From the NCBI GenBank assembly GCA_035389045.1, contig DAOORA010000020.1:1-64000 (forward strand): a DNA stretch of 64,000 bases. The letters run 5' to 3'. A program made the position numbers and the translations under genes. Within the stretch, counting starts at the first letter, position 1. Every line of letters starts with the position of its first letter. This stretch comes from Bacteroidales bacterium. GTDB taxonomy: Bacteria > Bacteroidota > Bacteroidia > Bacteroidales > CAIWKO01. The notes beneath the pieces were generated by a model. It did no database searches. It was not told where the DNA came from and saw only the letters and a list, made by a program, of their open reading frames with translations. Below, in pieces: positions 46,782-62,300 of the stretch.

Positions 46782-48356
46782 TCAATAACTTGAAGCATTT
46801 GAAGCCGCATATACTTCATATTCATAAGTTATGGTTTTCTTTTCTTTTCCTTTAAAAGGAATCTCCCAGTCTATAGTGATATAGGGATTCAGCCCGGCGT
46901 AACGGCCGCTTTTTTGTATTTTCCCATCATGACTGGCATTGAGTGCATTGGCAGTCAGGCTTTTGGTCACTGTTAGCAAAATATCCTTATCCTGAAGGTT
47001 CTCAACATATATTGTTCCTTTAATAGTGACTTTGTTGTAATAGGTTTTACCTATCTTTCTGACGTTCTCTTCTTTTTTTACTTCATCTTCCTTGTTTTTC
47101 ACAACTATATCTCCGGCTTTGGCGAGCTGTACCGCTGCGTTGGCGCCTTTAGGGGTATATTTGATACGGTCCTGGGCCAGCGGCTGGAAGTTATCATCCT
47201 GAACAAATACAGGCGCTGTGGTAAACGGGTGCGCGGTATTATTGGTAATAAGAAGGGAATGATACACATCAAATCTTTTTTCCGGATCATTGCTGATGTA
47301 ATTGTACTGTGAATATGCGGCGACGTCGCCGATGGAAACCTCATAAACATCTTTGTAAGGAACTTTCGATGAAAAGATCTGGAAACTGGTTTTGCTTTGT
47401 GCAGGAAGGCTTACTTTGCCAAGCTTGTACATATAAAGATCACTCGATTTTTCACCTTCGGCAGAATAATCATAATACTGCGGGATATCATTTCCATCAA
47501 GTGACCTTTCTTCGGCCATATAAACATTGCTTGTATAATAGGTCTGTGTCTGCATATAAGGTACTGCGGCGGGTTTAATATCATAAAGTGCCGTCAGGCA
47601 ATTATTGAACACCGGGTCGCACTGAAAACCATAATAAAACTGAGGATTCCCGACGGTCAGTGTAAGTTCGGCATCATCAATATCCTCCGCATAGTTTTCG
47701 ACAAGAGCTTTCATCTCCAGCTGAAGTTCGTTTTCACTGATCAATTTTATGTTGTAGGAAGGTATCCATTGTATTCCGCTTTGCATATAAACAACCCGCA
47801 AATCCGTGCTTGCCATATTTTTATCAAAATAAATCCTCGCCACACGCACTAGAGAATCTACCGATAGTTCGCCGACATTGGCATCATCAATAGTAAACTC
47901 CACCACCGAAGCAACCGGGTAAAAAGTTGTTTTATTGTCGGCAAGTTTTATTTTTGCGATACCCGACCCTTCATAATATTCCGACAGTGTTCCGCTGATC
48001 TCGCGCAGGTTTTTTTCGCTCCCCACAGCGTAAGTAAAACGAACCTTTTTTCTAACAGAGCCTTTGAATATATCATTGAAATTCTGAGGTTTCTTGGTTT
48101 TCTTTATGGTATCGGTCAGAAAACAAACTTTTGTTATTTTATTCTCTTTTGCAGGGTTCAGCCAGTATGTTCCCATCAAAGGCTGTTTCGGAAGCTCAAG
48201 TATGGTACAGCCTTTATCAACCCTTACACTGCCTTCTTTGGCAATAAAATAGGTGCCATTTTTAAACACATTGATCTGCATCGGCTTCAGACTGCTCTGT
48301 GCGAACAGGAACACCGATATCGAAATTAAACATAAAGAGGCAATGATTTTTTTCAT
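46782..48356 (-). CDS. DUF4139-like exported protein
   Basis: Signal peptide; INVFKNG, YMQSGIQWIPSY, LYMYKL..VSL and YTPKG pattern. Confidence 0.65.
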   Translation of the reverse strand: MKKIIASLCLISISVFLFAQSSLKPMQINVFKNGTYFIAKEGSVRVDKGCTILELPKQPLMGTYWLNPAKENKITKVCFLTDTIKKTKKPQNFNDIFKGSVRKKVRFTYAVGSEKNLREISGTLSEYYEGSGIAKIKLADNKTTFYPVASVVEFTIDDANVGELSVDSLVRVARIYFDKNMASTDLRVVYMQSGIQWIPSYNIKLISENELQLEMKALVENYAEDIDDAELTLTVGNPQFYYGFQCDPVFNNCLTALYDIKPAAVPYMQTQTYYTSNVYMAEERSLDGNDIPQYYDYSAEGEKSSDLYMYKLGKVSLPAQSKTSFQIFSSKVPYKDVYEVSIGDVAAYSQYNYISNDPEKRFDVYHSLLITNNTAHPFTTAPVFVQDDNFQPLAQDRIKYTPKGANAAVQLAKAGDIVVKNKEDEVKKEENVRKIGKTYYNKVTIKGTIYVENLQDKDILLTVTKSLTANALNASHDGKIQKSGRYAGLNPYITIDWEIPFKGKEKKTITYEYEVYAASNASSY

Positions 48357-49162: not shown

Positions 49163-49274
49163 TCTGACGGACCTTATCCCACAAGGGTAAATTTCATTGG
49201 ATGTAAAAAGTATCCTGTCAAAAAAAATTCCGAACTTTGAGCCGAAACATGCTTTTTTACATAGAAATACAGCA

Positions 49275-52200
49275 ATGAAGAACACATCACCGCCCAATAC
49301 TTCCGACGCATTAAAAGCCAATCTCACCGTGACCAGGCCCAAAAAAATTGTGCTGACCGATGAACACAAATGGTTATTGGGGCTTTCAGCCAATTACTAT
49401 GGAATTCAGGAACGTACAACGAACTTTTTCAACGAATATCATCATCCTTTTCCCGACCAGAAACTGATCAGCGATGAACTCCGGCGCCTGGCACTGGGCG
49501 ATTTCTGGTTTTATGCTCAGTGCCGTGATAAAGAAAAGGCGCTCAGGATCATATTGGGAATATTTGAAGAAACTCTCGAAAAAACAAAGGATCAGGTTGT
49601 TTTTGAAAGCGTATTTCCGGCATTTGTTGAATACTTAGCCATGATTGCCCGCCATGAAATCCCTGATATCGAATTGCTTAAAGCCGGGCTGGGTATAATG
49701 AAAAAATGGATCGCCATAAATCATTTGGTGGTACTCAGAAATTCAACATATTTAAAAAATCAGCTCGGACTGCTTCATCATAATGAATTGCTTAAAAATG
49801 AGTTTTTTCAGCTACTGTATGAACTTGCAGGTAGAGTATTACATTTCTGGGCAGACACTTCGGACGTGGAAATATGGTACAAAAAGAACAGGGAATATTT
49901 AAGCAAAGGTTTTGCCCATGAACTGAGAAATATAGGTAAACCCTATTTTAATAAACTGATTAAGAAGTGGGAAAGCGTGCGGAATTTTGATGAGCTCGAC
50001 AAAAACATCCCTCTTTATCAAGAATTTACAGATTATTTTACAAAACATACCGATACTTTTCATGTTATAAACGACCGTTTTTATTTTATTGTCTACCTGA
50101 TGCATATCCCGGGTATGGTTCATATCAAAAACACCCTTCTTGCTGATCTGAACAGGCTGATAAAAAAGATGTTTCTGGAGATCAAACCCGAACAGGCCGA
50201 CCCTTTCCTGGATAATATTTTTTCACTTTTTCATGAATTACACAAAGAACATAGCTCCACGGTATTGGATTGTGTTTTAACTTTAGGAAAAGAAATTATC
50301 CACACTGACCATGAAGAAAATATTCAGAAATTTGTTCAAAAGCTCATTGGGCTTCCGTTCGTAGTACCCGGTAAGCTGAGACTCAGCAACGAATGGAGAA
50401 CGATGGTTGATCCCGGTCATATAAAAAACATCCGTGTATGGCTGGAATTATTCGAAACGGCTCCTGACCAATATTCGAAACTCATCGCTGCACTCACCGT
50501 GAACCTCAAACTGAACGGTATTTTTATTTTCGACACCGACCTGTTCCAGAAAGATGTAACTGCACTGCTGAATTCAGATATCCAAAAATATTTCAGGCTT
50601 GTCAAACAGCTTTGCCGGATATTTCCGGTATATTTCAATGAGATAGGCGCTGAAGGAGAGTTACGGGACATCACAACAGCCATTGATGAACTTACGAGCC
50701 GTCAGGACAAACTCATCCACTTTCTGCGAAAACAGGTGCATATTGAAAGCAACAACACCCATATCGAACTAACCCGAAAGATCTATAATTTTTGGATAGA
50801 CGGACAAATCGACAATCTGAAACCCTTATTACCTGAAGATGTACTGGCAAACATCAGCCCAAACGGGAAATGGGTAGCACCCATGCATAAACTCATTATG
50901 AAGGTGGCTGAAAAAGCCCACATAAAACAGGCCACCGAACTATTAGAAGAGCATCCTGACAAAATAGACAAACTGGTAAACACCATTACCGGCGAACTAC
51001 CGGCAAACAAAATAAGACTCATGATGTTATGCCGGCTGTATTATTTGCTTATTGAAAAATACTCATTCAATACGGTCAACATCACAAAAAGCATCCTGAA
51101 ATATAATTTTATTCCACATTCGGAGGTCGAAGCACTGGAGGATGCTTTGTCGAAAAAGAACAGGGAAGCCGCTCTTACATATATTTTCAGCTTTATCAGC
51201 CTTCTCAATAAAGTTATACTGCAGGAAGAAAAAACTGAAGGATGGGAAAATATTTATCACAAGCGGCATGTTGCATTCGGAATCCCTTCCATGTATGGGG
51301 AGTACCATGAACGTCGTTTTGAAGCGCTGGGACTGATCTACAAATTGGAACAGGCTGCTTTGCTGATCATGGAAGAATGGGTGAAATCCATCAACCTGAA
51401 TTACATTACCGCCAAAACTCTCGAAAAAATTGCTTCCGTACTGCAACTATATAAAGAAGGTCTGTTGCTGGACGGTATTGAAAACAATGCGTTCAATTCA
51501 AACCTCAGCATGTTCGATTATAGTTTGAAATCGCAAAGTTTTTCGCTGGGTCAGTACACCAATATTTTCGGTTTCATGGGAGAAAATATCCGTGAGATCA
51601 TCAGTAAATATTTTTTCAGGCCTTATGAAGAAGTCCTGAAAATTGTGATCCCGCGGATGCCTGCCAGGCAACGCATTGATGGCCCCGATGTACAGAGTTT
51701 TCTGCATATGCAATCTGAGTCATTTTACCGGGATATGCTGTCCTCCTCGTTTTTATTGCAGAGCCTCGATAACTTTATCACTACCGTGCTGACCTCCCTG
51801 CGCAGTATGATGGACAATTACAGCATAGATAAGATCCGCGACATCATGTCGTACAACCCTGATATGGTGATCAGTACGCTGTATGACCAATCAAAAAATA
51901 TTGACAACCAGGTATATATCGGATCGAAAGCCTATTACCTCAAGAAGCTGTATTCATTAGGATACCCGGTACCGCCCGGATTTGTTATCACTACCGAGGT
52001 TTTCCGGCGTATTGACACGATACTCCAGAACAAAATGATGAGCCGGGAGATTGACAACATGATCATGGCCCAGATAAAAAAACTGGAAAAAATGACAGGC
52101 CAGGAATTTGGCAATCCCAGAAACCCGTTGATGCTTTCCGTACGTTCAGGCACAGCCGTATCGATGCCCGGCGCGATGAATACTTTTTTAAATGTGGGTA

Positions 52201-53372
52201 TCAATGAGAAAATCATTGAAGCGCTCAGCGTGCAACCCAATTATGGCTGGACTTCATGGGATTGCTATCGCAGGTTCCTGCAGAGTTGGGGTATGGCATC
52301 AGGACTGACGCGCGACACCTTTGACCAGATCATGATTGATTTCAAGAAGATGTATAATGTAAAACAAAAAGTACAGTTCACAAAAGAGCAAATGAGGGAG
52401 ATATCCTTTGGTTACCGTGAGGTTTTGCAGAAAAATAACATCCAGATCGAAGAAGAAGTATTTCCGCAGATCAGACAAGCCATTCTGAATGTTTTTGATT
52501 CATGGAATTCCGACCGTGCCATAGTGTACCGCAAGCATCTTCAGATTGCAGATGAATGGGGCACCGCCGTAGTTGTCCAAAAGATGGTGCTCGGAAACAT
52601 CAATTATACATCAGGAACCGGCGTAGTGTTCACTCATAATCCTCATATGAATAAGCCGGGTGTCCATTTATACGGTGATTATTCACTGGTCAGCCAGGGT
52701 GAAGACGTAGTTGGCGGGCTGGTTCATGTACTTCCTATTTCTCGAAATCAGACACACGGTCGCACCAAAGAAAGCTCTCTTGAAGAAAAATTTCCTGAAA
52801 CATACAGGCGGTTATACGAAATTGCATGTGAACTGACTGAAAAACATGGCTTCGGACACCAGGAAATTGAGTTCACCTTTGAAACTGAGCATAAGAAGGA
52901 TCTGTACATACTTCAAACCCGCGACCAGGACGTCCGTCCCAAGGACAAAACACACCAATTTGCCCTTACCGGCGTAAAAATGAAACTGCTTGGACAAGGC
53001 ATAGGAATTGGCGGAGGATCATTGAACGGTGTACTGATCTTTGATACCGAAGATATGGAACTGATGAGAAACAAATACCCGGATAAAAAACTCATATTGG
53101 TCAGGCCGGACACTGTACCTGACGACATTGGCATTATATTCGGATGCGACGGACTGCTTACCGCACGCGGCGGAGCGACCTCACACGCTGCAGTCACGGC
53201 TGCACGATTAGGAAAAATATGTATTGTCAACTGTACCGACCTGACGGTTTACGAACGGGAGAAAAAATGCGTAATCAAAAAACAAGTATTAAATGTTGGC
53301 GATGAAATTGCTATGGATGGCACATTCGGAAATATTTACAAGGGCAAATACCCTTTGATGCAACCCGAATAA
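49275..53372 (+). CDS. PPDK-family dikinase with long uncharacterised N-terminus and no C-terminal pyruvate-binding barrel
   Basis: IGSKA..PVPPGF, SVRSG..SMPGAM, SGTGVVFT, QGEDVVGG, LQTR; GGATSHAAV phospho-His at 53184-53186; the ORF ends right after the swivel domain. Confidence 0.88.
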   Translation: MKNTSPPNTSDALKANLTVTRPKKIVLTDEHKWLLGLSANYYGIQERTTNFFNEYHHPFPDQKLISDELRRLALGDFWFYAQCRDKEKALRIILGIFEETLEKTKDQVVFESVFPAFVEYLAMIARHEIPDIELLKAGLGIMKKWIAINHLVVLRNSTYLKNQLGLLHHNELLKNEFFQLLYELAGRVLHFWADTSDVEIWYKKNREYLSKGFAHELRNIGKPYFNKLIKKWESVRNFDELDKNIPLYQEFTDYFTKHTDTFHVINDRFYFIVYLMHIPGMVHIKNTLLADLNRLIKKMFLEIKPEQADPFLDNIFSLFHELHKEHSSTVLDCVLTLGKEIIHTDHEENIQKFVQKLIGLPFVVPGKLRLSNEWRTMVDPGHIKNIRVWLELFETAPDQYSKLIAALTVNLKLNGIFIFDTDLFQKDVTALLNSDIQKYFRLVKQLCRIFPVYFNEIGAEGELRDITTAIDELTSRQDKLIHFLRKQVHIESNNTHIELTRKIYNFWIDGQIDNLKPLLPEDVLANISPNGKWVAPMHKLIMKVAEKAHIKQATELLEEHPDKIDKLVNTITGELPANKIRLMMLCRLYYLLIEKYSFNTVNITKSILKYNFIPHSEVEALEDALSKKNREAALTYIFSFISLLNKVILQEEKTEGWENIYHKRHVAFGIPSMYGEYHERRFEALGLIYKLEQAALLIMEEWVKSINLNYITAKTLEKIASVLQLYKEGLLLDGIENNAFNSNLSMFDYSLKSQSFSLGQYTNIFGFMGENIREIISKYFFRPYEEVLKIVIPRMPARQRIDGPDVQSFLHMQSESFYRDMLSSSFLLQSLDNFITTVLTSLRSMMDNYSIDKIRDIMSYNPDMVISTLYDQSKNIDNQVYIGSKAYYLKKLYSLGYPVPPGFVITTEVFRRIDTILQNKMMSREIDNMIMAQIKKLEKMTGQEFGNPRNPLMLSVRSGTAVSMPGAMNTFLNVGINEKIIEALSVQPNYGWTSWDCYRRFLQSWGMASGLTRDTFDQIMIDFKKMYNVKQKVQFTKEQMREISFGYREVLQKNNIQIEEEVFPQIRQAILNVFDSWNSDRAIVYRKHLQIADEWGTAVVVQKMVLGNINYTSGTGVVFTHNPHMNKPGVHLYGDYSLVSQGEDVVGGLVHVLPISRNQTHGRTKESSLEEKFPETYRRLYEIACELTEKHGFGHQEIEFTFETEHKKDLYILQTRDQDVRPKDKTHQFALTGVKMKLLGQGIGIGGGSLNGVLIFDTEDMELMRNKYPDKKLILVRPDTVPDDIGIIFGCDGLLTARGGATSHAAVTAARLGKICIVNCTDLTVYEREKKCVIKKQVLNVGDEIAMDGTFGNIYKGKYPLMQPE

Positions 53373-53393
53373 CAGGGATTATACACCCTGTTA
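53370..53393 (+). terminator. Short hairpin at the dikinase stop codon (weak terminator or mRNA-stabilising stem)
   Basis: TAACAGGG-ATTATACA-CCCTGTTA followed by CTTT. Confidence 0.4.
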
Positions 53394-53499
53394 CTTTATG
53401 CAAGAACGGTCATCATTGATAATAAAATACAATTAGTGAAATAACCATAAACATAAAACATATTAAATAATATATTAATTAATTAAATTATTGTGAAAC

Positions 53500-54753
53500 A
53501 TGAAAGCGGAGATAAAAAACAAGAATTATTTAGGCATTAACAGTCTTGGCAGAATTGGCAAATTAACGCTTTGGAACCAACTCGTCACGCGTCATTTCGA
53601 TGGAATAGTCATTAATCTTGGCCGTAAAACGGGAAAAAAAATTGAAGATCTTGTACAGGCACTTGGAACCGACTCAACCTACGGCGACCTGGGAAATTTT
53701 CTTTACGGACAAAAATCAAGGCGTGATTTGATAAATATAGTGGATTCCGAACAGTATCTGTTTGACATTGACGGTATGCCGGTGAAAGTCCTTACGGAAG
53801 AGCGAAATCCGGCTGCTGTACCATGGAAAAAGGAACAGGTTCAGATTGTAGTAGATTGTACGGGGCAATTTACGGATCCCACCCTTGCTCCTGACAGCCC
53901 GAAAGGAAGCCTGCGCGGACACCTGGAAGGCGGTGCGCGTAAAGTGATTGTGAGCGCTCCCTTCAAAATAAAGGAAGCAGGGAAGAAAATGCCCGACGAC
54001 AGTATTATGATGGTTTTTGGCATCAATCACCTCGAATATGACCCGCTCAGACACCACGTAATTTCTGCGGCCAGTTGCACCACCACAGGCTTATCGCATA
54101 TGATCAAACCGCTGATGGAGGACCGTTTCACTTCAAAAATTCTCACGGCTTCCATGTCGACCGTACATGCAGCCACCAACACGCAAAGTGTCCTCGACGC
54201 CTTACCCAAATCCGGCGCCAGCGATCTCCGTAAGACCCGTTCTGTTTTTAATAATATCATTCTATCCACCACAGGGGCAGCAAAAGCGCTGGAATCCATC
54301 ATTCCGCAGATACAGGAAATTGGTTTTATGGCCGATTCGGTACGCATTCCCACCTCCACAGTGTCTATGATAACACTGAATATTACCTTTAATTCAGGTC
54401 TTGATGAAAAAGGAAATCCCATTATCAACCATAAGCATATCAATAATATCTATAAAAGCGCCGCCGAAGGGCCTCAAAAAGGGCTGCTGGTATTTTCAGA
54501 AAAACAGAATGTGTCAACCGACCTCCTGGGTTTCAGGGCAGCTATTGTCATTGAAGGCCACGAAAGCCACACCCGTACAGGCTTCATCAAACTGCCGGCA
54601 GAAACGGTAAAGGCGCTGGGCGTCAAAAGTCCGGTTGATATCAATATACCAGTGACACATGCCAAAATATTCGGCTGGTACGACAATGAATTCGGGAGCT
54701 ATGTCAACCTGCTCGATAAGCTGACATGTTACATCGATCAGCATATCCGTTAA
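53500..54753 (+). CDS. Divergent glyceraldehyde-3-phosphate dehydrogenase-family enzyme
   Basis: GINSLGRIGK, VDCTG, VIVSAP, SAASCTTTGL (catalytic Cys), TVHA, STTGAAKAL, RIPT, WYDNEFG; 417 aa with insertions. Confidence 0.88.
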   Translation: MKAEIKNKNYLGINSLGRIGKLTLWNQLVTRHFDGIVINLGRKTGKKIEDLVQALGTDSTYGDLGNFLYGQKSRRDLINIVDSEQYLFDIDGMPVKVLTEERNPAAVPWKKEQVQIVVDCTGQFTDPTLAPDSPKGSLRGHLEGGARKVIVSAPFKIKEAGKKMPDDSIMMVFGINHLEYDPLRHHVISAASCTTTGLSHMIKPLMEDRFTSKILTASMSTVHAATNTQSVLDALPKSGASDLRKTRSVFNNIILSTTGAAKALESIIPQIQEIGFMADSVRIPTSTVSMITLNITFNSGLDEKGNPIINHKHINNIYKSAAEGPQKGLLVFSEKQNVSTDLLGFRAAIVIEGHESHTRTGFIKLPAETVKALGVKSPVDINIPVTHAKIFGWYDNEFGSYVNLLDKLTCYIDQHIR

Positions 54754-54792
54754 TAATTAACATATTTAATTAACTTTTTTAACCAACAACTC

Positions 54793-56061
54793 ATGTCAAT
54801 ATTACTCAGCAACGCCACTTACATAGACTACCAGACACTGGAATTTATACCATGTAACATCATTATTGAAAGCTATCCCTATTCCACTATTGTTTTTACT
54901 GAAAAACAGGACAACGGCGCCGATACTAAGGTTGATTGTTCAGGGAAATATGTCACACGGGCATTTGGCTGCGGACATCATCATGTATATTCGGCGCTTG
55001 CAACAGGAATGCCCGCTCCCAAAAAAATCCCGTCGAATTTTTTAGAGATACTGCAATACGTATGGTGGACACTGGATAAGTGTCTGGATAAAGAAATGAT
55101 TGAGATCAGCGCCCTGGTCACCGCCATCGAATGTGCCAGAAATGGGGTAACCTGTGTGGTGGACCATCACTCCTCTCCTTTCGCCATTGAAGGTTCACTC
55201 GAAATAATAGCCAAAGCCTTTGATCAGGTAGGCATATCACATCTTTTGTGTTATGAAATTTCCGACCGCGACGGAGAACAAGCAGTGAAACAGTCACTTG
55301 ACGAAACAGCGGATTTTCTTTCACACAGGCAGGGACTAGTAGGTCTTCATGCCTCATTTACCGTATCTGACCAAACACTCAGGCAGGCAAAGGAGCTTAC
55401 CGAAAAATTTGACACGGGTATTCATATCCATGTTGCTGAGGATGAGTTAGACGAACGATTATGTGTTGAACATCAAGGCAAACGGGTTGTTGAACGTTTG
55501 AACGACCACGGACTGCTGAAGAATAACAAAACGATACTGAGCCATTGCTTATACATCAACCATAAAGAAAGAGAGATAATAGGCAAATCGGGAGCCTGGA
55601 TTGCACAGAATACCGAAAGCAACATGAATAACAAGGTTGGATTTTTCAATTCGGAAGGAATAAAAAAGAATATTATGCTTGGCACCGACGGCATGCACAG
55701 CGACATGCTGAAAAGTGCAAAAACAACTTTTTTTGCAGGTCAGAATTTTGATAAAATTGATTATGCCGAAACCTACCGCCGTCTCAGAAATGTTAATTTC
55801 TATTTTAATGAAAACGGTTTTTCCGGTGATGCCGATAACAACCTGGTAGTGCTTGACTATAACCCATATACAGAGTTCAATTCAGGGAATTTTTTAGGTC
55901 ATTTTATTTTCAGCATCGAATCAAAACATGTTCAGCATGTGATATCTGATGGCAGACTCATCGTCAAAGACCGCAAGGTTATTACAGTGGATGAAGATGA
56001 GATACACAAAGCCAGCAGGGAATTAAGCAAAAAACTCTGGAACAAAATGAAAGAACTTTAG
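54793..56061 (+). CDS. ssnA: SsnA-like metal-dependent amidohydrolase
   Basis: GHHHVYSALA.GM, FLEIL..VWW.LD, DHHSS, GLHASFT, HIHVAE, ESNMNN.VG, GTDG. Confidence 0.75.
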   Translation: MSILLSNATYIDYQTLEFIPCNIIIESYPYSTIVFTEKQDNGADTKVDCSGKYVTRAFGCGHHHVYSALATGMPAPKKIPSNFLEILQYVWWTLDKCLDKEMIEISALVTAIECARNGVTCVVDHHSSPFAIEGSLEIIAKAFDQVGISHLLCYEISDRDGEQAVKQSLDETADFLSHRQGLVGLHASFTVSDQTLRQAKELTEKFDTGIHIHVAEDELDERLCVEHQGKRVVERLNDHGLLKNNKTILSHCLYINHKEREIIGKSGAWIAQNTESNMNNKVGFFNSEGIKKNIMLGTDGMHSDMLKSAKTTFFAGQNFDKIDYAETYRRLRNVNFYFNENGFSGDADNNLVVLDYNPYTEFNSGNFLGHFIFSIESKHVQHVISDGRLIVKDRKVITVDEDEIHKASRELSKKLWNKMKEL

Positions 56062-56148
56062 TATTTAACCATAGCAAATATATTTTTTCTCAGAGGATCA
56101 TCCCTAAGCATAACAATTTTACAACCATAAGACTACAAACAACTGCTC

Positions 56149-57528
56149 ATGCCTCTCCTGATAAAAAACCCGCTGATTGTCAATGCCGGTGAAAGTAACG
56201 TAGCCGATATCCTTATAGATAAGGGTATTATCGTTGAGATTTCCGGAAATATTGATGCCGGGAACCATCAAATTATAGATGCAGGAGGTCTGTATGCCTT
56301 TCCCGGCGGCATCGATCCTCACGTACACCTGCAACTGCCAACACCGGCCGGAAATTCAAGTGATGATTTCAGAAGTGGTACCATTGCGGCTTTAGCGGGA
56401 GGAACTACAACCATCATTGATTTTGTGACCCCCAGGCGCGGGCAGTCGCATACCGAAGCCCTACGGTTGCGAAAATCAGAAGCGACGGCATCCCTGACCG
56501 ATTACAGCCTGCATGGCAGCATCGTTTCGCTGAATGAAAATACAGAGGATGAAGTACGTATCTGCATAGAAGAAGAAGGAATTACTTCTTTTAAAACGTA
56601 CCTGGCATACCGTAACACGGTTGGTATCAATTATGAAATGTTGCGCCAGGTAATGCAAATAGTTAAAAAACATAACGGACTGGTCACCATTCACTGCGAG
56701 GATGGCGATGAGATCAGCCGTCTGCAGCAGGATTTCGTTTCAAAAGGACTAACATCCCCGCTATACCATGCGTTATCGCGCCCCGAATACACCGAATATG
56801 AAGCGGTGGCCGAAGTCCTGAAACTTTCTCAGGAAACCGGATGTAATGTTTATATTGTCCATGTTTCAGCAAAAAGAAGCATGGAACTTATTGCGCCCTG
56901 CAGATCTTCGGGAAAGGTATTTGCCGAAACCTGCCCGCACTATTTGCTTTTAGACGACAGCAATTATCAAAAGCCCCTCCCCGGCTCACTAAAATATGTG
57001 ATAAGCCCGCCAAATCGAAATAAGGAAAGTATAGAAGCCCTGTGGCAACATATCACAGATGGAACCATTGACGTACTTTCGACCGACCATTGCCCGTTCC
57101 ACACCTTTGGTCAAAAAGATACCGGCGCTGATAATTTCACCCTGATACCCAATGGCGCAGGGGGTATTGAATACCGCCTTGCCCTTTTGTATACTTACGG
57201 AGTGCTTGAAAAAAGAATTTCTCTTAACCGTTTTACAGAACTTACTTCAACCAATGCTGCGAAAATTTTCGGGTTGTATCCTCAAAAAGGTATCATCGCC
57301 GTAGGTTCCGATGCAGATATGGTGTTATGGAATCCTGGTGCGGAAGGGATCATCTCCCGCAAGACACAATTTCAAAACTGTGATTCAAATATCTATGACG
57401 GGATTCCTGTTAAAGGGTCACCGGAGTATGTCATCTGTGGCGGAAAAATAGCCTTCGCACATGGAAAAGCAGTTACAGAAGGGTTACATGGGAGATTTCT
57501 TAAAAGGCTACTGCGCCGGATGATTTGA
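56149..57528 (+). CDS. hydA: Dihydropyrimidinase / D-hydantoinase
   Basis: PGGIDPHVH, GGTTTIIDF, TSFKTYLAY, IHCED, VHVS, ETCPHYL, STDHCPF, IPNG. Confidence 0.9.
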   Translation: MPLLIKNPLIVNAGESNVADILIDKGIIVEISGNIDAGNHQIIDAGGLYAFPGGIDPHVHLQLPTPAGNSSDDFRSGTIAALAGGTTTIIDFVTPRRGQSHTEALRLRKSEATASLTDYSLHGSIVSLNENTEDEVRICIEEEGITSFKTYLAYRNTVGINYEMLRQVMQIVKKHNGLVTIHCEDGDEISRLQQDFVSKGLTSPLYHALSRPEYTEYEAVAEVLKLSQETGCNVYIVHVSAKRSMELIAPCRSSGKVFAETCPHYLLLDDSNYQKPLPGSLKYVISPPNRNKESIEALWQHITDGTIDVLSTDHCPFHTFGQKDTGADNFTLIPNGAGGIEYRLALLYTYGVLEKRISLNRFTELTSTNAAKIFGLYPQKGIIAVGSDADMVLWNPGAEGIISRKTQFQNCDSNIYDGIPVKGSPEYVICGGKIAFAHGKAVTEGLHGRFLKRLLRRMI

Positions 57529-57563: not shown

Positions 57564-57613
57564 TTATAAATCGCCAAAACTGATATTTTTTGTGTACATT
57601 TGGCGATTTATAA
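57564..57613. repeat. Palindromic site upstream of ATPase gene (15-bp arms, 20-nt spacer)
   Basis: TTATAAATCGCCAAA-actgatattttttgtgtaca-TTTGGCGATTTATAA; contains TACATTTG. Confidence 0.85.
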
Positions 57614-57629
57614 CCAATATAATAATAAG

Positions 57630-59042
57630 ATGAAACTTATTGGCAGAGAACCTGAAAAATCAATACTTGAGCAAGCATTAAGAAGCAGGCATGCCGAGCT
57701 CATTGCAGTATTTGGAAGAAGGAGGGTCGGGAAAACATACCTGGTTCAACACGTTTACAAAAACGATTTCATTTTTGAGTTTTCAGGAATTTTGCACGGC
57801 ACCCTGAAGCAGCAACTCGACAATTTTCATCTTACCTTAACCCGAAAAAAAAGAAAAATAAAAAAACCGGCTAACTGGCTTGAAGCATTCAGCCAACTTA
57901 TTGAAATCATTGAATCATTATCCCTTAAAAAAAAGAAGGTGATTTTCATGGATGAATTTCCCTGGCTCGACACCCGGAAATCAGGATTTCTGGCTGCCTT
58001 TGATAACTTCTGGAACAGTTACGCAGTGAAAAACAAAAACCTGGTGGTGGTTATTTGCGGATCAGCAGCATCATACATGATCCAGAAGATTATTAACAAT
58101 AAAGGCGGCTTGCACAACCGCATCACGCAGAAGATACGCCTGCTTCCTTTTACACTGAAAGAATCGGAGCAATTTTTAAACTATAATAATGTAAAATTTA
58201 CCCGCTACGATATTTTGCAGCTATATATGGCCATGGGCGGAATTCCTTATTATCTCGGTAAAGTGTCACCCGGTGAAAGCGTACCGCAGAATATTGACCG
58301 CTTATGTTTCACAAAAGACGGCGCACTGAGAACAGAATTCAATACTGTTTTTACATCCTTGTTTGAAGTGCCCCACAATCATGAGCTCATTATCCGGATT
58401 CTTGCATCAGTACGCAAGGGATTGACAAGAAATGAAATGCTGAAAAAAATGAAAACACAAACCGGCGGCGGTATCACAAAAACGCTCATGGAACTTGAAG
58501 AATCCGGATTTATAGAAAAATACCTGCCTTACCTGGGTACTAAAGATTCTTTATACCGCCTGACCGACGAATATTCGTTGTTCTATTTAAAATTTATTGA
58601 ACACTCGAAACCATCCAGACACGGCGTCTGGCAGAGTATGTTCAACAATGCATCATACAGGTCATGGGCCGGTTTTTGTTTTGAATCGGTTTGTATCAAA
58701 CACATTGAGCAGATCAAAGAAGGCTTGAAAATTGCCGGAATAAAATCCGAGCAGGGAAGCTGGCTGGACAAAAAGCAGGAAAACGGGGCACAGATAGACC
58801 TGTTGATCGACCGCGCAGATAATGTAATCAATATATGCGAAATTAAATTTTATAATTCCGCCTTCACTATCGATAAAAAATATGCCGGCGAACTGGCAAA
58901 AAAGACAGCTGCTTTTTCGAAAAGCACCCAATCAAAAAAAAATATCCGGATAACACTGATAAGCACGTATGGCTTGATACCAAACAAATACAGCAGGCAA
59001 TACGTCCAGAATGAACTAACAATGGATGATTTGTTTGTATAG
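57630..59042 (+). CDS. Archaeal-ATPase-type (ATPase_2) P-loop ATPase with wHTH-like region and C-terminal PD-(D/E)xK-like nuclease motif
   Basis: LIGRE.E, GRRRVGKT, FMDEFPW, CGS, GGIPYYL, QIDLL...ICEIKF; ATG at 57630. Confidence 0.9.
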   Translation: MKLIGREPEKSILEQALRSRHAELIAVFGRRRVGKTYLVQHVYKNDFIFEFSGILHGTLKQQLDNFHLTLTRKKRKIKKPANWLEAFSQLIEIIESLSLKKKKVIFMDEFPWLDTRKSGFLAAFDNFWNSYAVKNKNLVVVICGSAASYMIQKIINNKGGLHNRITQKIRLLPFTLKESEQFLNYNNVKFTRYDILQLYMAMGGIPYYLGKVSPGESVPQNIDRLCFTKDGALRTEFNTVFTSLFEVPHNHELIIRILASVRKGLTRNEMLKKMKTQTGGGITKTLMELEESGFIEKYLPYLGTKDSLYRLTDEYSLFYLKFIEHSKPSRHGVWQSMFNNASYRSWAGFCFESVCIKHIEQIKEGLKIAGIKSEQGSWLDKKQENGAQIDLLIDRADNVINICEIKFYNSAFTIDKKYAGELAKKTAAFSKSTQSKKNIRITLISTYGLIPNKYSRQYVQNELTMDDLFV

Positions 59043-59393: not shown

Positions 59394-62300
59394 ATGAAAA
59401 CAATTAAAATCATTGCTCTTATTCTTCTGGTGTCGGTGACTGCCATTGCAGTAAAATCAGTCATTCCGGCTTTTTTTTCTGAGCGGTCGGCCGGCGTAAT
59501 GATCTCTCCAAACGACGACTATAATAAACTCTGGGCAAAAGCCGATTCGCTGCTTAACAAAGGCCTTACACGCTCGGCTATAGAAGTGGTTCAGGTGATT
59601 TACGAAAAAGCCAAACTGGAAAATAATACCGGAAATTTCGTTAAAGCCGTCACCTATAAACTCCGGCTCGAATCTTATATCAGCGAGGATGATTATGTTA
59701 AGGAAATCAATGATCTTAACAAAGAAGCCGCTGAAGCACGCTTTCCCATCAAGCCGGTAATACATTCGATGATCGCCGAAGTATACTGGAAATATTACCA
59801 GAACAACCGGTACAAGTTTCTGAACCGTACCGAAACAGTGGATTTTGTTCCTGAAGATATCAGGACATGGGATCTGAGAAAGATCGTGGAACAATCGATC
59901 AAATATTATCAGTTGTCACTCGAAAATGTCGATAGTCTAAAAAATACATCCATAAATGTGTATGATGAAATAATTGTGAAACAAGGCGGCGATTCAAAAA
60001 ATTTCAGGCCAACACTTTATGACTTCCTTATACACCGTGCCATAGATTTTTTTGCAAACGAAGAGCCGGGACTGGTAAGCCCTGTCAACCGTTTTGAGAT
60101 TGACAAAGCTGAATTTTTTGCCCCCTATGATTCATATATCATTTTCCAGATAAAAACGAATGACAAGTATTCATTGAATTATTATGCAGCCAGGTTGTTT
60201 CAGGATCTGCTTGACTTCCATAAGAACGATGCCGACCCGCGATCACTTATTGATAACGATTTGAAGCGCCTGAAATTTATGAAGCAAAAATCTATAAACC
60301 CTGATAAGGATACCTTATTCATGCAGGCACTTGAAACGCTCAATAAAAAATTTGAATCTTTTCCGGCATCTTCTGAAGTGATTTATGAAATTGCCAATTA
60401 TTATTACCAACAGGGCGCTACCTATGCATCAACCAACGACGAGTCAGATCGCTGGAAACTTAAAAAAGCTTATGAAATCTGCGACATAGCTATTAAAAAA
60501 TTCCCGGATGCTTTCGGATCAAACAACTGCAAATACCTGCAGTCAAAGATCAGGGAGAAATCGCTGACTTTTACCAGCGAAGAAGTAAATGTCCCCGGAA
60601 AGCCTTTCAGGGGTCTTCTTTCCTACCACAACCTGAACAAGGTGTATATCAGGATTTGCAAGGCAGATTACAAATGGTATGATAAACTGATCAGTCAGTA
60701 TTATTACGATGACAAACTTATCCAGCCTCTACTTAAACTTACTCCGCAAAAAACATTCAGTGTGGATATTACAACCCCCGGGGATTATCAAAGCCATTCG
60801 GCAGAAATCAAAATTCCCGAACTGGAAGCCGGTTTTTACGTGATACTTATCGGAACCGATGCCGGTTTCACATATAACACTGAAGCCATAGCCTATTCCA
60901 GTTTCTGGATGTCAAACCTGTCTTACCTGAAGCGCACAACAGAGAGCGGAAAGACTCAGTTCGTCGTGATGAACCGCGAAAACGGGCAAGCAGTCAAAGG
61001 GGTTTCGGCACAGGTTTACAACGAAATATACAACTATGCGTCACGCCGGTATGAATACCACAGCGGTCCGGTCTATTTAACCGATGAGAACGGTATGTTT
61101 GAGGTTGTTTCTACGTCTAACAACTACAATAATTCATATATTGAATTCAATTATTCAAATGATAAGCTGAAATCAACCGTTTTTTACCAGTATAAATCGT
61201 ATAAAAATGAAAAAAAGAAATACAACAGGACTATATTCTTTACGGACAGGATGATATACCGCCCCGGGCAGACAATTTATTTTAAAGGAATATTGCTCGA
61301 AACCGACGGTGAAAATTCAGTAATAAAGCCGGGCATAGAAAGCAATGTTGTTTTTTATGATGTCAACTATCAGAAAGTTTCGGAAATAAAACTCACCAGC
61401 AATGAATACGGTACATTTAGTGGTTCTTTCACCATACCCACCGGCTTGCTCAACGGTCAGATGCACATTGCAGATAACTGGGGCAGCATATATTTCTCTG
61501 TAGAAGAATATAAACGCCCGAAATTTGAAGTGAAATTTGAACCTGTGAAAGGATCGTACAAACTGGGTGAGAAAGTAACCGTTAAGGGTACGGCCGTTGC
61601 CTATGCGGGCTCCAATATCGATAATGCACAGGTAAAATACCGTGTGGTGCGTACGGCACGTTTCCCGTATTGGTGGTACTACTGGTACGGATATTACCCG
61701 AATTCGCCACAGATGGAAATAACTAACGGAAACACCACTACTGATGATAAGGGCGAATACACCATAGAATTTACCGCCATACCGGATTACAAGGTCAGCC
61801 GAAAATCCGACCCTGTATTCTCTTATGTGATCTATGCTGACGTTACTGATATCAATGGAGAAACACGCTCCTCGCAGACCACGGTGAACGCCGGTTACAA
61901 AGCGCTGATGGTGGCCGTTGGATTACCCGGCGAAATAGAAAAAAGCAGCAAAGACCCCTTTGTCATTTCTACAACCAACCTGAGCGGCACGTACGAATAT
62001 GCCACAGGCAGCATCATCATCCACAAGCTGAAACAACCGGAGAAACTATTCCGCAGCAGGTTATGGAAAGAACCCGATATAAAACTTATTTCGAAAAATG
62101 ATTATTATCAATGGTTTCCATATGACCTTTACGAAGATGAAAATAACACCTCCAGGTGGGCCAAAGAAAGCAAAGTAATGGAATACGACTTCGATACAGA
62201 GAAAGATTCGCTGATGCATATTCCGAACCTTTCCACATGGCAATCAGGGCAATATGTTCTTGAGATCACTTCGGTTGACAAATTCGGTGAAAAAGTTCAG

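What the first reader, a model, noticed from the sequence alone, without database searches (positions are those of the whole stretch)
49275..57528. Barrel-less giant dikinase + divergent GAPDH + SsnA/HydA: candidate uncharacterised metabolic module
Seen: four co-oriented genes separated by 127, 39 and 87 bp. Established: SsnA and HyuA/HydA-type amidohydrolases act in anaerobic purine/pyrimidine ring opening, and GAPDH-fold enzymes (GAPDH, Asd, ArgC) interconvert acyl-phosphates and aldehydes. Inference: the atypical dikinase and atypical GAPDH form a dedicated kinase/acyl-phosphate oxidoreductase pair, by analogy with aspartokinase/Asd or ArgB/ArgC. They would act on a non-glycolytic substrate, perhaps a nucleobase-catabolism product, or form an AMP/PPi-linked alternative to the PGK step. 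I do not know a characterised pathway with this architecture.
Basis: partly seen in the sequence, partly recalled or inferred. Interest (0 to 1): 0.82.

Follow-up and report, generated by a model that had tools for sequence, protein, structure and literature searches.

The report
Barrel-less dikinase paired with GAPDH
A very large, uncharacterised relative of pyruvate phosphate dikinase is almost always encoded next to a glyceraldehyde-3-phosphate dehydrogenase gene in hundreds of anaerobic bacteria. The pair may be an unrecognised step of central carbon metabolism, whereas the two neighbouring nucleobase-type hydrolase genes are unrelated to it.

Summary
Gene 1 (49275-53372, 1365 aa) has an 880-aa all-helical N-terminal domain with no Pfam, PDB-sequence or fold match. 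This is followed by a PPDK-type ATP-grasp and phosphohistidine swivel domain, and the protein ends where PPDK's TIM barrel would begin. Gene 2 (417 aa) is a divergent GAPDH with eight insertions; its catalytic Cys and His and both phosphate sites are invariant.

The dikinase/GAPDH pairing is real and strong. A GAP3 ortholog lies directly downstream in 57 of 65 informative loci from many phyla, and 7 of the other 8 carry a different GAPDH gene next to the dikinase. GAP3 occurs only in dikinase-positive genomes (9 of 9, against 0 of 182). In some genomes the partner is a canonical GAPDH, which points to 1,3-bisphosphoglycerate/3-phosphoglycerate as the shared metabolite.

SsnA and the hydantoinase are not part of the module. 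SsnA was found in 0 of 80 loci and a HydA-like gene in 1 of 80. In 8 of 8 other genomes that hold both, SsnA lies on a different contig from the dikinase.

My best guess is a PPi/AMP-linked 3-phosphoglycerate dikinase working with a dedicated GAPDH, in parallel with PGK. The biochemistry is inferred, not shown, and four literature searches found no description of the pair.

The parts
49275..53372 (+). DIK: a 1365-aa barrel-less PPDK-like dikinase. The ATG at 49275 is taken as the start; an upstream in-frame TTG at 49197 is probably not used.
   Evidence: ORF. A 100% identical 1365-aa database protein and about 1360-aa homologs start at the ATG. Domains.
49275..51914 (+). N-terminal domain of about 880 aa. 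It is almost entirely helical apart from one beta hairpin, has no known family or fold, and is the presumed third (substrate) site. The invariant motifs F-D-T-D-L-F-Q-x-D (residues 419-427), E-I-G-A-E-G (456-461) and K-R-H-x-A-x-G-I-P-S-M-Y-G (663-675) lie in the core, residues 396-712.
   Evidence: No Pfam or NCBIfam hit. Invariant columns from alignments A1 and A2. AF2 model: pLDDT 85.5, pTM 0.78. Foldseek finds only solenoids at TM 0.1-0.2. VIA best Z is 11 on generic helical repeats. The core folded alone has pLDDT 87.9 and best Z 6.2. The PDB profile search has best E 0.029.
51900..52925 (+). PPDK-type ATP-grasp (nucleotide-binding) domain.
   Evidence: PF01326 at 4.1e-35. TIGR01828 profile positions 12-335. 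34% identity to the genome's own PPDK.
53085..53324 (+). Phosphohistidine swivel domain (PEP-utilizers). The invariant G-G-x-T-S-H-A-A-V motif places the catalytic His at residue 1304 (bases 53184-53186).
   Evidence: PF00391 at 1.5e-15. T1302, S1303 and H1304 are invariant in 21 sequences. The segment aligns with the TSH of the genome's own PPDK.
53500..54753 (+). GAP3: a 417-aa GAPDH-family dehydrogenase, a clade found only with DIK. Catalytic Cys193 and His223 and both phosphate sites are kept. The Asp that specifies NAD is replaced by an invariant N-x-G-R motif.
   Evidence: Family scores. Alignment to canonical GAPDHs. Invariant columns in 56 orthologs. Synteny.
54793..56061 (+). SsnA-like amidohydrolase. 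It is a neighbour only in this genome and not part of the conserved module.
   Evidence: Family scores. Synteny.
56149..57528 (+). D-hydantoinase/dihydropyrimidinase (HyuA/HydA type). It recurs next to SsnA in other genomes and is not part of the DIK module.
   Evidence: TIGR02033 scores 497 bits against a cut-off of 393. It is adjacent to SsnA in 8 of 29 SsnA loci.

Best explanation
DIK and the GAPDH gene beside it form a two-gene metabolic unit that is carried by many anaerobic bacteria in addition to PGK, GAPDH and PPDK.

DIK keeps the first two stations of pyruvate phosphate dikinase: an ATP-grasp domain that takes ATP plus Pi to AMP plus PPi, and a swivelling histidine that carries the beta-phosphate. 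The pyruvate/PEP barrel has been replaced by a new 880-aa helical domain.

I propose that this third site binds 3-phosphoglycerate, giving the reaction 3-PG + ATP + Pi <-> 1,3-bisphosphoglycerate + AMP + PPi. The adjacent GAPDH would then interconvert 1,3-BPG and glyceraldehyde-3-phosphate. The unit would be a PPi/AMP-linked bypass of phosphoglycerate kinase. It could push gluconeogenesis at low energy charge; the GAP3 cofactor pocket resembles those of NADP-accepting gluconeogenic GAPDHs. Run in the other direction, it could recover ATP from AMP and PPi.

Shown here: the domain architecture, the conserved catalytic residues, the pairing and the distribution. Inferred: the substrate, the use of Pi/PPi, the direction and the cofactor.
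For: Architecture: PPDK_N plus PEP-utilizers with no barrel. The C-terminal 485 aa align with the genome's own PPDK residues 27-541 at 34% identity. The match to PPDK (TIGR01828, 367 bits) is far better than the match to PEP synthase (94 bits). The TSH histidine is invariant. The N-domain carries about 70 invariant, mostly charged or polar residues across phyla, as expected of a catalytic site.

Pairing in the 80 fetched loci: GAP3 lies directly downstream on the same strand in 57 of 65 loci with at least 1300 nt downstream. Seven of the other 8 have a different GAPDH-family gene adjacent. No other neighbour family occurs in more than 9 of 80 loci.

Pairing in the sample of 201 genomes of the order: DIK is in 19. 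GAP3 is in 9, all of them DIK-positive, and in none of the 182 DIK-negative genomes. Of 9 further DIK loci fetched, 5 have a canonical type I GAPDH divergently upstream (TIGR01534 428-437 bits, above the cut-off) and 1 has a second GAPDH type co-directionally upstream.

The partner can therefore be an ordinary GAPDH, which points to G3P/1,3-BPG chemistry. The GAP3 equivalents of Cys149, His176, Thr179, Arg195, Thr208-Gly209 and Arg231 are invariant in 56 orthologs.

The DIK N-domain and GAP3 pairwise distances co-vary (Mantel r 0.82; 0 of 2000 permutations reach it; 39 loci).

The few informative neighbours touch the 3-PG node: SerA in L037 and L059, PGDH-like genes in L019 and L022, and a glycerate kinase directly upstream in L022.

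Thermodynamics, from textbook hydrolysis energies I recall: about -4 kJ/mol for 1,3-BPG + AMP + PPi -> 3-PG + ATP + Pi, so the reaction would be reversible.

The genome's own H+-PPase and PPDK show that the organism handles PPi.
Against: No biochemical datum exists, and the substrate is inferred only from the partner gene.

PGK is present in 37 of 40 and in 4 of 5 DIK-positive genomes tested, so no genome demonstrably depends on the bypass. No PGK, and no other gene that I recognised as glycolytic, lies in any of the 80 loci.

An 880-aa domain is far larger than a 3-PG site needs. Some distant family members carry an N-terminal hemerythrin domain (2 of 12 scanned), and signalling genes are frequent neighbours. 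Both observations would also fit a regulatory role.

Three of 9 extra DIK loci, and 1 of 65 in the first set, show no adjacent GAPDH in the stretch examined.

Selenium-metabolism genes flank the pair in three unrelated lineages, which this model does not explain.

The N-domain fold has no known relative, so the structure gives no support for any particular substrate.
Confidence: 0.4

Rival explanations
1. It keeps the kinase-plus-acyl-phosphate-reductase logic but with a different, non-glycolytic carboxylate, for example 4-phosphoerythronate, phosphoglycolate, glycerate or a catabolic intermediate. DIK would make the acyl phosphate and GAP3 would reduce it to the aldehyde.
For: GAP3 is a distinct clade with eight conserved insertions and scores below the GAPDH cut-off. 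The genome already has two canonical GAPDHs and two PGKs, so redundancy might argue for a new substrate. The N-domain is new.
Against: In 5 of 9 GAP3-less DIK loci the adjacent partner is a canonical type I GAPDH, the best-scoring one in its genome. All residues of both GAPDH phosphate sites are invariant in GAP3. Links to nucleobase genes are absent.
Confidence: 0.15
2. DIK is a regulatory or sensory phosphotransferase rather than a flux-carrying enzyme. Its phosphohistidine would modify GAPDH or another protein, or would sense energy charge or redox state, and so control the partner dehydrogenase.
For: A large helical-repeat-like N-domain is typical of scaffolds. Hemerythrin, an O2/redox sensor domain, is fused to 2 of 12 distant members. 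GGDEF and PAS-histidine-kinase genes are the next most frequent neighbours, in 9 and 8 of 80 loci. PGK is retained.
Against: Conservation is very high, at 40-48% identity over 1360 aa across phyla, with dense invariant polar clusters in the N-domain core. That pattern is more typical of an enzyme active site. The signalling families involved are very abundant and cluster on generic domains. No precedent for a PPDK-type protein kinase was retrieved in my searches.
Confidence: 0.15
3. The pair acts in selenium (or sulfur) activation or delivery. The GAPDH reactive cysteine would carry a perselenide and DIK would act as a dikinase on it, as an adjunct or alternative to selenophosphate synthetase SelD.
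For: L023 has selA-DIK-GAP3-selB tightly packed with YedF alongside. L074 has selB-selA convergent on the pair. L013 has a YedE selenium transporter and a cysteine desulfurase/SclA-like gene directly upstream of GAPDH-DIK. L019 has a GrdB-type selenoprotein gene. SelD is somewhat enriched, in 12 of 19 DIK-positive against 72 of 182 DIK-negative genomes. I recall, but did not retrieve, reports that E. coli GAPDH binds selenium and can donate it to SelD.
Against: Seven of 19 DIK-positive genomes of the order lack SelD at 82-100% completeness. Five of these also lack SelA. A complete chromosome with DIK has no SelD. Selenium genes flank only 3-4 of 80 loci; my rough estimate of the chance expectation is about 0.75 loci.
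Confidence: 0.07
4. DIK, GAP3, SsnA and HydA would be one module acting on a nucleobase-catabolism product.
For: The four genes are co-oriented with short spacers. One RNA-library contig bridges the GAP3-SsnA spacer, 54562-54868. Purine-type genes occur downstream in a few Bacteroidota loci: a HydA-like gene in L031, XdhC/Xdh in L036 and an Amidohydro_3 gene in L030. SsnA is somewhat enriched in DIK-positive genomes, 9 of 19 against 43 of 182.
Against: SsnA was found in 0 of 80 DIK loci and a HydA-like gene in 1 of 80. No DIK or GAP3 lies beside SsnA in 29 loci. The two are on different contigs in 8 of 8 other genomes that hold both. The closest DIK relatives, L009 and L010, have unrelated downstream genes. 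The genome's YgeW and Xdh genes lie on other contigs.
Confidence: 0.03

Closest known systems
Pyruvate, phosphate dikinase (PPDK, EC 2.7.9.1; TIGR01828)
   Same: The ATP-grasp nucleotide-binding domain and the phosphohistidine swivel domain, with the G-G-x-T-S-H motif, are the same. Identity to the genome's own PPDK over these two domains is 34%. By inference DIK has the same ATP + Pi -> AMP + PPi + His-P half-reaction.
   Different: DIK has no C-terminal PEP/pyruvate TIM barrel. It has instead an 880-aa helical N-terminal domain of unknown fold, placed before rather than after the two shared domains. It scores 367 bits against a cut-off of 843. It is always paired with a GAPDH gene.
Other barrel-less members of the PEP-utilizing superfamily: rifampin phosphotransferase (NF041857) and the prodiginine ligases PigC/RedH (NF052631/NF052632). 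Their mechanisms are recalled, not checked here.
   Same: They share the ATP-grasp plus swivel-His chassis, combined with a family-specific substrate domain in place of the barrel. NCBIfam gives weak matches restricted to the shared domains.
   Different: The scores are tiny (25-37 bits against cut-offs of 999-1350). The domain order, the substrate domain and the genomic context all differ.
Phosphoglycerate kinase / GAPDH, and the kinase/acyl-phosphate reductase pairs (aspartokinase/Asd, ArgB/ArgC, ProB/ProA)
   Same: The proposed logic is the same: a carboxylate is activated to an acyl phosphate and a Cys-dependent dehydrogenase interconverts it with the aldehyde. GAP3 keeps the GAPDH catalytic apparatus.
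   Different: The activating enzyme would be a dikinase (ATP -> AMP, with Pi -> PPi), not a simple kinase. No homology to PGK or to the amino-acid kinases was seen. PGK coexists in the same genomes.
Type I GAPDH (TIGR01534), including gluconeogenic NADP-accepting GapB (recalled)
   Same: The fold is the same. So are the catalytic Cys/His, the Ps and Pi phosphate sites, and the W-Y-D-N-E motif.
   Different: GAP3 has eight clade-specific insertions totalling about 80 extra residues. The NAD-specifying Asp is replaced by an invariant N-x-G-R followed by a basic insert. GAP3 scores below the cut-off. It is found only in DIK-positive genomes.

Membership tests
Pyruvate, phosphate dikinase (TIGR01828 / EC 2.7.9.1) | N-terminal ATP-grasp nucleotide-binding domain (PF01326) | tested here: met
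   PF01326 at 4.1e-35. The domain aligns with the genome's own PPDK.
Pyruvate, phosphate dikinase (TIGR01828 / EC 2.7.9.1) | Phosphohistidine swivel domain with the catalytic T-S-H | tested here: met
   PF00391 at 1.5e-15. T1302, S1303 and H1304 are invariant.
Pyruvate, phosphate dikinase (TIGR01828 / EC 2.7.9.1) | C-terminal PEP/pyruvate-binding TIM barrel (PF02896) | tested here: not met
   There is no PF02896 hit. The protein ends at the equivalent of PPDK residue 541 of 919. The N-domain is helical, not a barrel.
Pyruvate, phosphate dikinase (TIGR01828 / EC 2.7.9.1) | Score above the curated equivalog cut-off | tested here: not met
   367.3 bits against a cut-off of 843.45.
Type I GAPDH (TIGR01534) | Gp_dh_N and Gp_dh_C domains with the catalytic Cys and His | tested here: met
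   PF00044 and PF02800. C193 and H223 are invariant in 56 orthologs.
Type I GAPDH (TIGR01534) | Substrate-phosphate (Ps) and inorganic-phosphate (Pi) site residues. The residue roles are recalled from GAPDH structures. | tested here: met
   S192, T194, T226, R244, T258-G259 and R282 are invariant.
Type I GAPDH (TIGR01534) | Score above the curated equivalog cut-off | tested here: not met
   295.7 bits against a cut-off of 367.2. The genome's other two copies score 444 and 373 bits.
Type I GAPDH (TIGR01534) | G3P + NAD(P)+ + Pi -> 1,3-BPG activity | not testable with these tools
   This needs an enzyme assay.
Anaerobic purine/urate gene cluster (ssnA, hyuA, ygeW, ygeY, xdh) | Conserved co-location of DIK/GAP3 with these genes | tested here: not met
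   SsnA in 0 of 80 loci and HydA-like in 1 of 80. No DIK or GAP3 beside SsnA in 29 loci. SsnA and DIK lie on different contigs in 8 of 8 other genomes that hold both.
D-hydantoinase/dihydropyrimidinase (TIGR02033), gene 56149-57528 | Score above the curated cut-off over the full length | tested here: met
   497.3 bits against a cut-off of 393.25, covering residues 3-453.
SsnA (NF005540 / TIGR03314), gene 54793-56061 | Score above the curated cut-off | tested here: not met
   379 bits against 444, and 330.5 against 455.5. SsnA is the best-matching family, but the gene scores below both cut-offs.

The most novel reading that the evidence does not exclude
Hundreds of anaerobic bacterial species carry a previously unrecognised central-metabolic reaction. 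It would be a 3-phosphoglycerate, phosphate dikinase (3-PG + ATP + Pi <-> 1,3-BPG + AMP + PPi) built from the PPDK chassis plus a new 880-aa catalytic domain of novel fold. It would work with a dedicated, probably NADP-accepting GAPDH as a PPi-linked bypass of phosphoglycerate kinase. That would change the ATP/PPi bookkeeping of glycolysis and gluconeogenesis in energy-limited anaerobes.
Probability: 0.35. Interest if true: 0.9.

Novelty: new variant of a known kind. Interest (0 to 1): 0.74.

Why it matters
The lower part of glycolysis/gluconeogenesis is regarded as fully known in bacteria. The described variations bypass 1,3-BPG altogether (GAPN, GAPOR) or use PPi at the PFK and PPDK steps.

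This family is about 1360 aa long and 40-48% identical across phyla. It is present in at least 586 species-level genomes and in more than 1600 protein clusters. It is derived from PPDK, is fused to a domain with no known fold, and sits beside GAPDH genes. All this suggests an additional PPi/AMP-linked step at the 3-PG/1,3-BPG node.

If that is confirmed, metabolic models and energy budgets of syntrophs, Cloacimonadota, Lentimicrobium, Geobacter relatives, Desulfobacteraceae and many digester and sediment Bacteroidales would need revision. If the substrate turns out to be something else, this is still a large, conserved, widespread enzyme family whose function is open. It has a cultured carrier, Fusibacter paucivorans DSM 12116 (locus L087), in which to test it.

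Tried and rejected
Binding prediction. Complex prediction with DIK residues 360-880 plus GAP3, both supplied as alignments, gave no verdict (score 0.00 against a mark of 0.32). It says nothing either way about binding.

Fold searches.
- Foldseek of the 880-aa model against the PDB returned only alpha-solenoids at TM 0.1-0.2.
- VIA wide search gave a best Z of 11 on generic helical repeats.
- The core, residues 396-712, folded alone gave a best Z of 6.2.
- The PDB sequence profile search gave a best E of 0.029, against a designed protein.
- The ESM Atlas returned only the protein's own kind of cluster, at scores below 0.9.

Literature. Four searches found no paper describing the pair. The Geobacter metallireducens genome paper (PMC2700814; I read only the passages found by term search) mentions only ordinary PPDK and two GAPDH isoenzymes. 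Subscription journals are not covered by the library.

PGK replacement idea. PGK is present in 37 of 40 and in 4 of 5 DIK-positive genomes. The absences are all in MAGs of unknown completeness, so replacement is not supported.

Divergent second PGK of this genome (C17) as a third partner. It occurs in 32 of 201 genomes of the order but in only 5 of 19 DIK-positive ones, so it is not linked.

Selenium idea. I followed it up and demoted it; see the rival explanations.

Promoter and terminator scan. The counts are at shuffle level, 30 against 27.6 and 10 against 10.6, and no terminator-like site lies in the three spacers. The sigma-70 consensus may not apply to this phylum.

RNA libraries. Coverage is by short contigs only. 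Parts of the stretch without cover are not evidence of silence.

Full report
OBSERVATION

The window holds four co-oriented + strand ORFs.
- 49275-53372: 1365 aa from the ATG. An upstream in-frame TTG at 49197 would give 1391 aa.
- 53500-54753: 417 aa.
- 54793-56061: 422 aa.
- 56149-57528: 459 aa.

Gene 1 carries only two Pfam families, both at the C-terminal end: PPDK_N (4.1e-35) and PEP-utilizers (1.5e-15). Nothing matches its first roughly 880 residues, and there is no PEP-utilizers_C barrel. NCBIfam's PPDK model matches only profile positions 12-335 and 383-523 of 865, at 367 bits against a cut-off of 843. BLASTP against the genome's own PPDK (919 aa, contig C31) aligns the last 485 residues with PPDK residues 27-541 at 34% identity, and the protein then stops. 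'Barrel-less giant dikinase' is therefore accurate.

Gene 2 is a GAPDH-family protein that scores below the type I cut-off (295.7 against 367.2 bits). Gene 3 is SsnA-like, with its best family below the cut-off. Gene 4 is a D-hydantoinase/dihydropyrimidinase above the cut-off.

The genome is 96% complete in 135 contigs. Elsewhere it holds two further GAPDH genes that score above the type I cut-off (444 and 373 bits; the second is the ~334-aa type described below), a canonical PPDK and two PGKs. The pair is therefore an extra set.

THE DIKINASE FAMILY

Searching with the N-terminal 880 residues finds 1621 proteins at E <= 0.001 among 7997 scored candidates. The full-length listed proteins are about 1360 aa long, and a few shorter ones are marked partial by their sources. 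They carry the same two Pfam domains and are 40-48% identical over the N-domain. Their sources are Bacteroidales, Clostridia, Chloroflexota, Delongbacteria, Geobacteraceae and others. The only names given are 'PEP/pyruvate-binding domain-containing protein', 'pyruvate, orthophosphate dikinase' and 'ppdk2'.

In a library of 50%-identity representatives, the N-domain profile finds 718 proteins (266 at 1e-30 or better). The long ones are all 1335-1540 aa. Eleven of 12 distant members scanned (1335-1540 aa) keep PPDK_N, and 10 of these also keep PEP-utilizers. The twelfth, of 1140 aa, ends within PPDK_N. Two carry an extra N-terminal hemerythrin domain.

The 80 loci fetched come from the following groups:
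- Bacteroidales and Lentimicrobium
- Cloacimonadota
- Syntrophomonadaceae
- Geobacter relatives
- Desulfobacteraceae, including strain NaphS2
- Dehalococcoidia
- Calditrichales and Ignavibacteria
- CSSED10-310
- Fusibacter paucivorans DSM 12116

Alignments show the G-G-x-T-S-H phosphohistidine motif to be invariant. They also show about 70 invariant N-domain positions, concentrated in residues 415-500 (F-D-T-D-L-F-Q-x-D, E-I-G-A-E-G, R-K-Q-x-H-x-E-x-N) and 655-692 (K-R-H-x-A-x-G-I-P-S-M-Y-G).

AlphaFold2 with 44 sequences gives a confident model (pLDDT 85.5, pTM 0.78). It is almost entirely helical apart from one beta hairpin, whose invariant loop is the only low-confidence internal segment.

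No search gave a meaningful structural relative.
- Foldseek: solenoids at TM 0.1-0.2.
- VIA-align against 48,161 representatives: best Z 11, on generic repeats.
- The conserved core folded alone (pLDDT 87.9): best Z 6.2.
- PDB sequence profile search: nothing significant.

THE PAIRING

GAP3 orthologs, 59-82% identical, lie directly downstream on the same strand in 57 of the 65 loci that have at least 1300 nt after the dikinase. My ORF picker scored 54. Three more (L009, L036 and L084) have the gene by tblastn, with a short or antisense ORF picked in between. Of the other 8, seven have a different, shorter GAPDH-family gene next to the dikinase, and one (L031) has none. Fourteen of the 70 loci with enough upstream sequence have a GAPDH-family gene as the upstream neighbour: 11 are ~334-aa genes directly upstream on the same strand, and 3 (269-346 aa) lie on the opposite strand. 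The window genome's copy of that ~334-aa type is on contig C2. No other gene cluster occurs in more than 9 of 80 loci. Pfam scans of 199 flanking proteins show heterogeneous neighbours.

I also examined a sample chosen without regard to the gene: 201 genomes of the window's order.
- The dikinase is in 19. It is absent from the same-genus and same-family genomes, so its distribution is patchy.
- GAP3 is in 9, all dikinase-positive, and in none of the 182 others. It is adjacent in 8 of the 9; the ninth lies on another contig of a fragmented assembly.
- Of the other ten dikinase-positive genomes, nine were fetched. Five have a GAPDH divergently upstream that is 57-61% identical to this genome's housekeeping copy. 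In the four of those five genomes that I scanned, it is the best-scoring type I GAPDH of its genome (428-437 bits). One has the ~334-aa type co-directionally upstream. Three show none in the stretch fetched.

With about three GAPDH genes among a few thousand genes, chance adjacency would be well under 1% per locus; this is my own rough estimate. N-domain and GAP3 pairwise distances co-vary (Mantel r 0.82; 0 of 2000 permutations reach it; 39 loci). Shared species phylogeny would contribute to that correlation as well.

GAP3 ITSELF

Against canonical GAPDHs, GAP3 has eight clade-specific insertions, including a 13-aa one and a 24-aa one. The following are invariant in 56 orthologs:
- the catalytic Cys193 and His223;
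- the equivalents of Thr179, Arg195, Thr208-Gly209 and Arg231 (the two phosphate sites; the residue roles are recalled);
- the W-Y-D-N-E motif.

The Asp that binds the adenosine ribose in NAD-specific GAPDHs is replaced by an invariant N-x-G-R followed by a basic insert. This resembles the loss of that Asp in gluconeogenic, NADP-accepting GapB (recalled) and suggests that GAP3 uses NADP(H). This is inference only.

WHAT IS NOT PART OF IT

SsnA was found in 0 of the 80 dikinase loci and a HydA-like gene in 1, L031. SsnA is in 52 of 201 genomes of the order. Across 29 SsnA loci, HydA is adjacent in 8 and the dikinase or GAP3 in none. Nine of the 19 dikinase-positive genomes have SsnA, but in all 8 besides this one it lies on a different contig. 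The closest dikinase relatives (L009 and L010, 66% identity over the N-domain) have unrelated downstream genes. The genome's YgeW and two Xdh-type genes lie on other contigs. SsnA-HydA is thus a separate, recurrent pair that happens to lie next to the module in this genome.

Short contigs from two activated-sludge metatranscriptome libraries match parts of all four genes at 99% or better, and one contig bridges the GAP3-SsnA spacer. These are contigs from RNA libraries. They do not prove transcription and do not show a single transcript.

MECHANISM

Shown here: a PPDK-type ATP-grasp domain and an intact swivel histidine; loss of the pyruvate barrel; gain of a conserved new domain; and near-obligate pairing with a GAPDH that is either specialised or ordinary.

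Inferred: DIK performs the PPDK first half-reaction, ATP + Pi + His -> AMP + PPi + His-P. Its shared domains are far closer to PPDK than to PEP synthase (367 against 94 bits). It then transfers the phosphate at the new domain.

The only constant partner makes or consumes 1,3-bisphosphoglycerate, and that partner can be a canonical GAPDH. The simplest acceptor is therefore 3-phosphoglycerate: 3-PG + ATP + Pi <-> 1,3-BPG + AMP + PPi. From textbook hydrolysis energies (recalled), the reaction is close to equilibrium, about 4 kJ/mol. It could drive the uphill PGK step of gluconeogenesis when PPi is removed, or yield ATP from AMP and PPi in the glycolytic direction.

Several points are consistent with a gluconeogenic role but do not prove it.
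- GAP3 has an NADP-like cofactor pocket.
- Many carriers are, by my recollection of their physiology, non-saccharolytic anaerobes: Geobacter relatives, Syntrophomonadaceae, Desulfobacteraceae and Cloacimonadota.
- Neighbours occasionally belong to the 3-PG node: SerA in L037 and L059, PGDH-like genes in L019 and L022, and a glycerate kinase in L022.

Evidence against. PGK is retained in 37 of 40 and in 4 of 5 carriers tested. No PGK, and no other gene that I recognised as glycolytic, lies in the 80 loci. The new domain is much larger than a 3-PG site needs. The hemerythrin fusions hint at regulation.

RIVALS

(i) Another carboxylate/aldehyde pair. The canonical-GAPDH partners and the invariant phosphate sites argue against it.

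(ii) A regulatory or sensory phosphotransferase. The hemerythrin fusions, the scaffold-like fold and the signalling neighbours are in its favour. The enzyme-like pattern of conservation argues against it.

(iii) Selenium activation or delivery. In favour: selA-DIK-GAP3-selB with YedF in L023; selB-selA beside the pair in L074; YedE and an SclA-like desulfurase upstream in L013; and a GrdB-type gene in L019. Against: 7 of 19 carriers in the order lack SelD, five of those also lack SelA, and a complete carrier chromosome has no SelD.

COMPARISON AND NOVELTY

DIK works like a PPDK in two of its three stations. It fails PPDK membership on the barrel and on the curated score. Like rifampin phosphotransferase and PigC/RedH (recalled), it belongs to the barrel-less branch of the PEP-utilizing superfamily, but it shares with them only the common domains. 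GAP3 is a GAPDH-family member that falls outside the curated type I model.

Four full-text searches found no description of the pair or of a phosphoglycerate dikinase. The library omits most subscription journals, so prior work cannot be excluded.

I rate this a new variant of a known kind. It is a new, widespread dikinase family with a new third domain and a fixed GAPDH partner, and its reaction remains to be measured.

VERDICT

- The dikinase/GAPDH module is strongly supported.
- The nucleobase link is rejected.
- The PPi-linked PGK-bypass mechanism is the best current hypothesis, at about 0.4.
- Interest is 0.74.

Noticed in passing
L023:6596-15928; L074:8001-17125; L013:4153-10871: Selenium-machinery genes flank the dikinase/GAPDH pair in three unrelated lineages. 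A Cloacimonadota MAG has selA-DIK-GAP3-selB tightly packed, with YedF alongside. An Eubacteriaceae MAG has selB-selA convergent on the pair. A Delongbacteria MAG has a YedE transporter and a cysteine desulfurase/SclA-like gene directly upstream.
   Followed up: partly
Proteins P0174 and P0168: Distant members of the dikinase family, 1455-1540 aa long, carry an extra N-terminal hemerythrin (HHE cation-binding) domain. This hints at O2, redox or iron sensing.
   Followed up: no
G000:C2:70889-71893 (L089:8890-9894), and upstream of DIK in 11 of 70 loci: There is a second divergent GAPDH type of about 334 aa, with T-T-T-S-A-I where canonical enzymes have S-T-G-A-A-K-A. It often sits directly upstream of the dikinase. 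In the window's genome it lies on another contig, next to an AMP-binding (acyl-CoA-synthetase-like) gene and near a nucleoside symporter and an H+-pyrophosphatase.
   Followed up: partly
G000:C17:58741-59952 (L008:1501-2712): The genome has a second, divergent PGK (276 bits against 509 for the canonical copy). Orthologs are in 32 of 201 genomes of the order. The same low-scoring type is the only PGK found in several Cloacimonadota and Desulfobacteraceae carriers. It is not correlated with the dikinase, being in 5 of 19 dikinase-positive genomes.
   Followed up: partly
window 54793-57528 and 29 SsnA loci L091-L119: SsnA and a D-hydantoinase form their own recurrent pair, adjacent in 8 of 29 loci despite flanks of only 1.5 kb. 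The genome also has YgeW (contig C5) and two xanthine-dehydrogenase-type Mo subunits (contigs C72 and C1) scattered elsewhere. This suggests a dispersed anaerobic purine-degradation gene set.
   Followed up: partly
window 57600-59042: A 480-aa ATPase_2/AAA plus DUF234 protein (the 'archaeal ATPase' type) lies directly after the hydantoinase on the same strand. It has no NCBIfam match.
   Followed up: no
window 59394-63998 (runs off the end), 44098-46125 and 46782-48356: Large secreted or surface-type ORFs surround the region. One is a frame of more than 1535 aa that is still open at the window's end. One is a 675-aa repeat protein on the minus strand. One is a 524-aa DUF4139 protein. None was analysed further.
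   Followed up: no
window 54562-54868: A 307-nt contig from an activated-sludge metatranscriptome library, at 99% or better, spans the 39-bp GAP3-SsnA spacer. This is compatible with read-through but is not proof of a transcript.
   Followed up: partly
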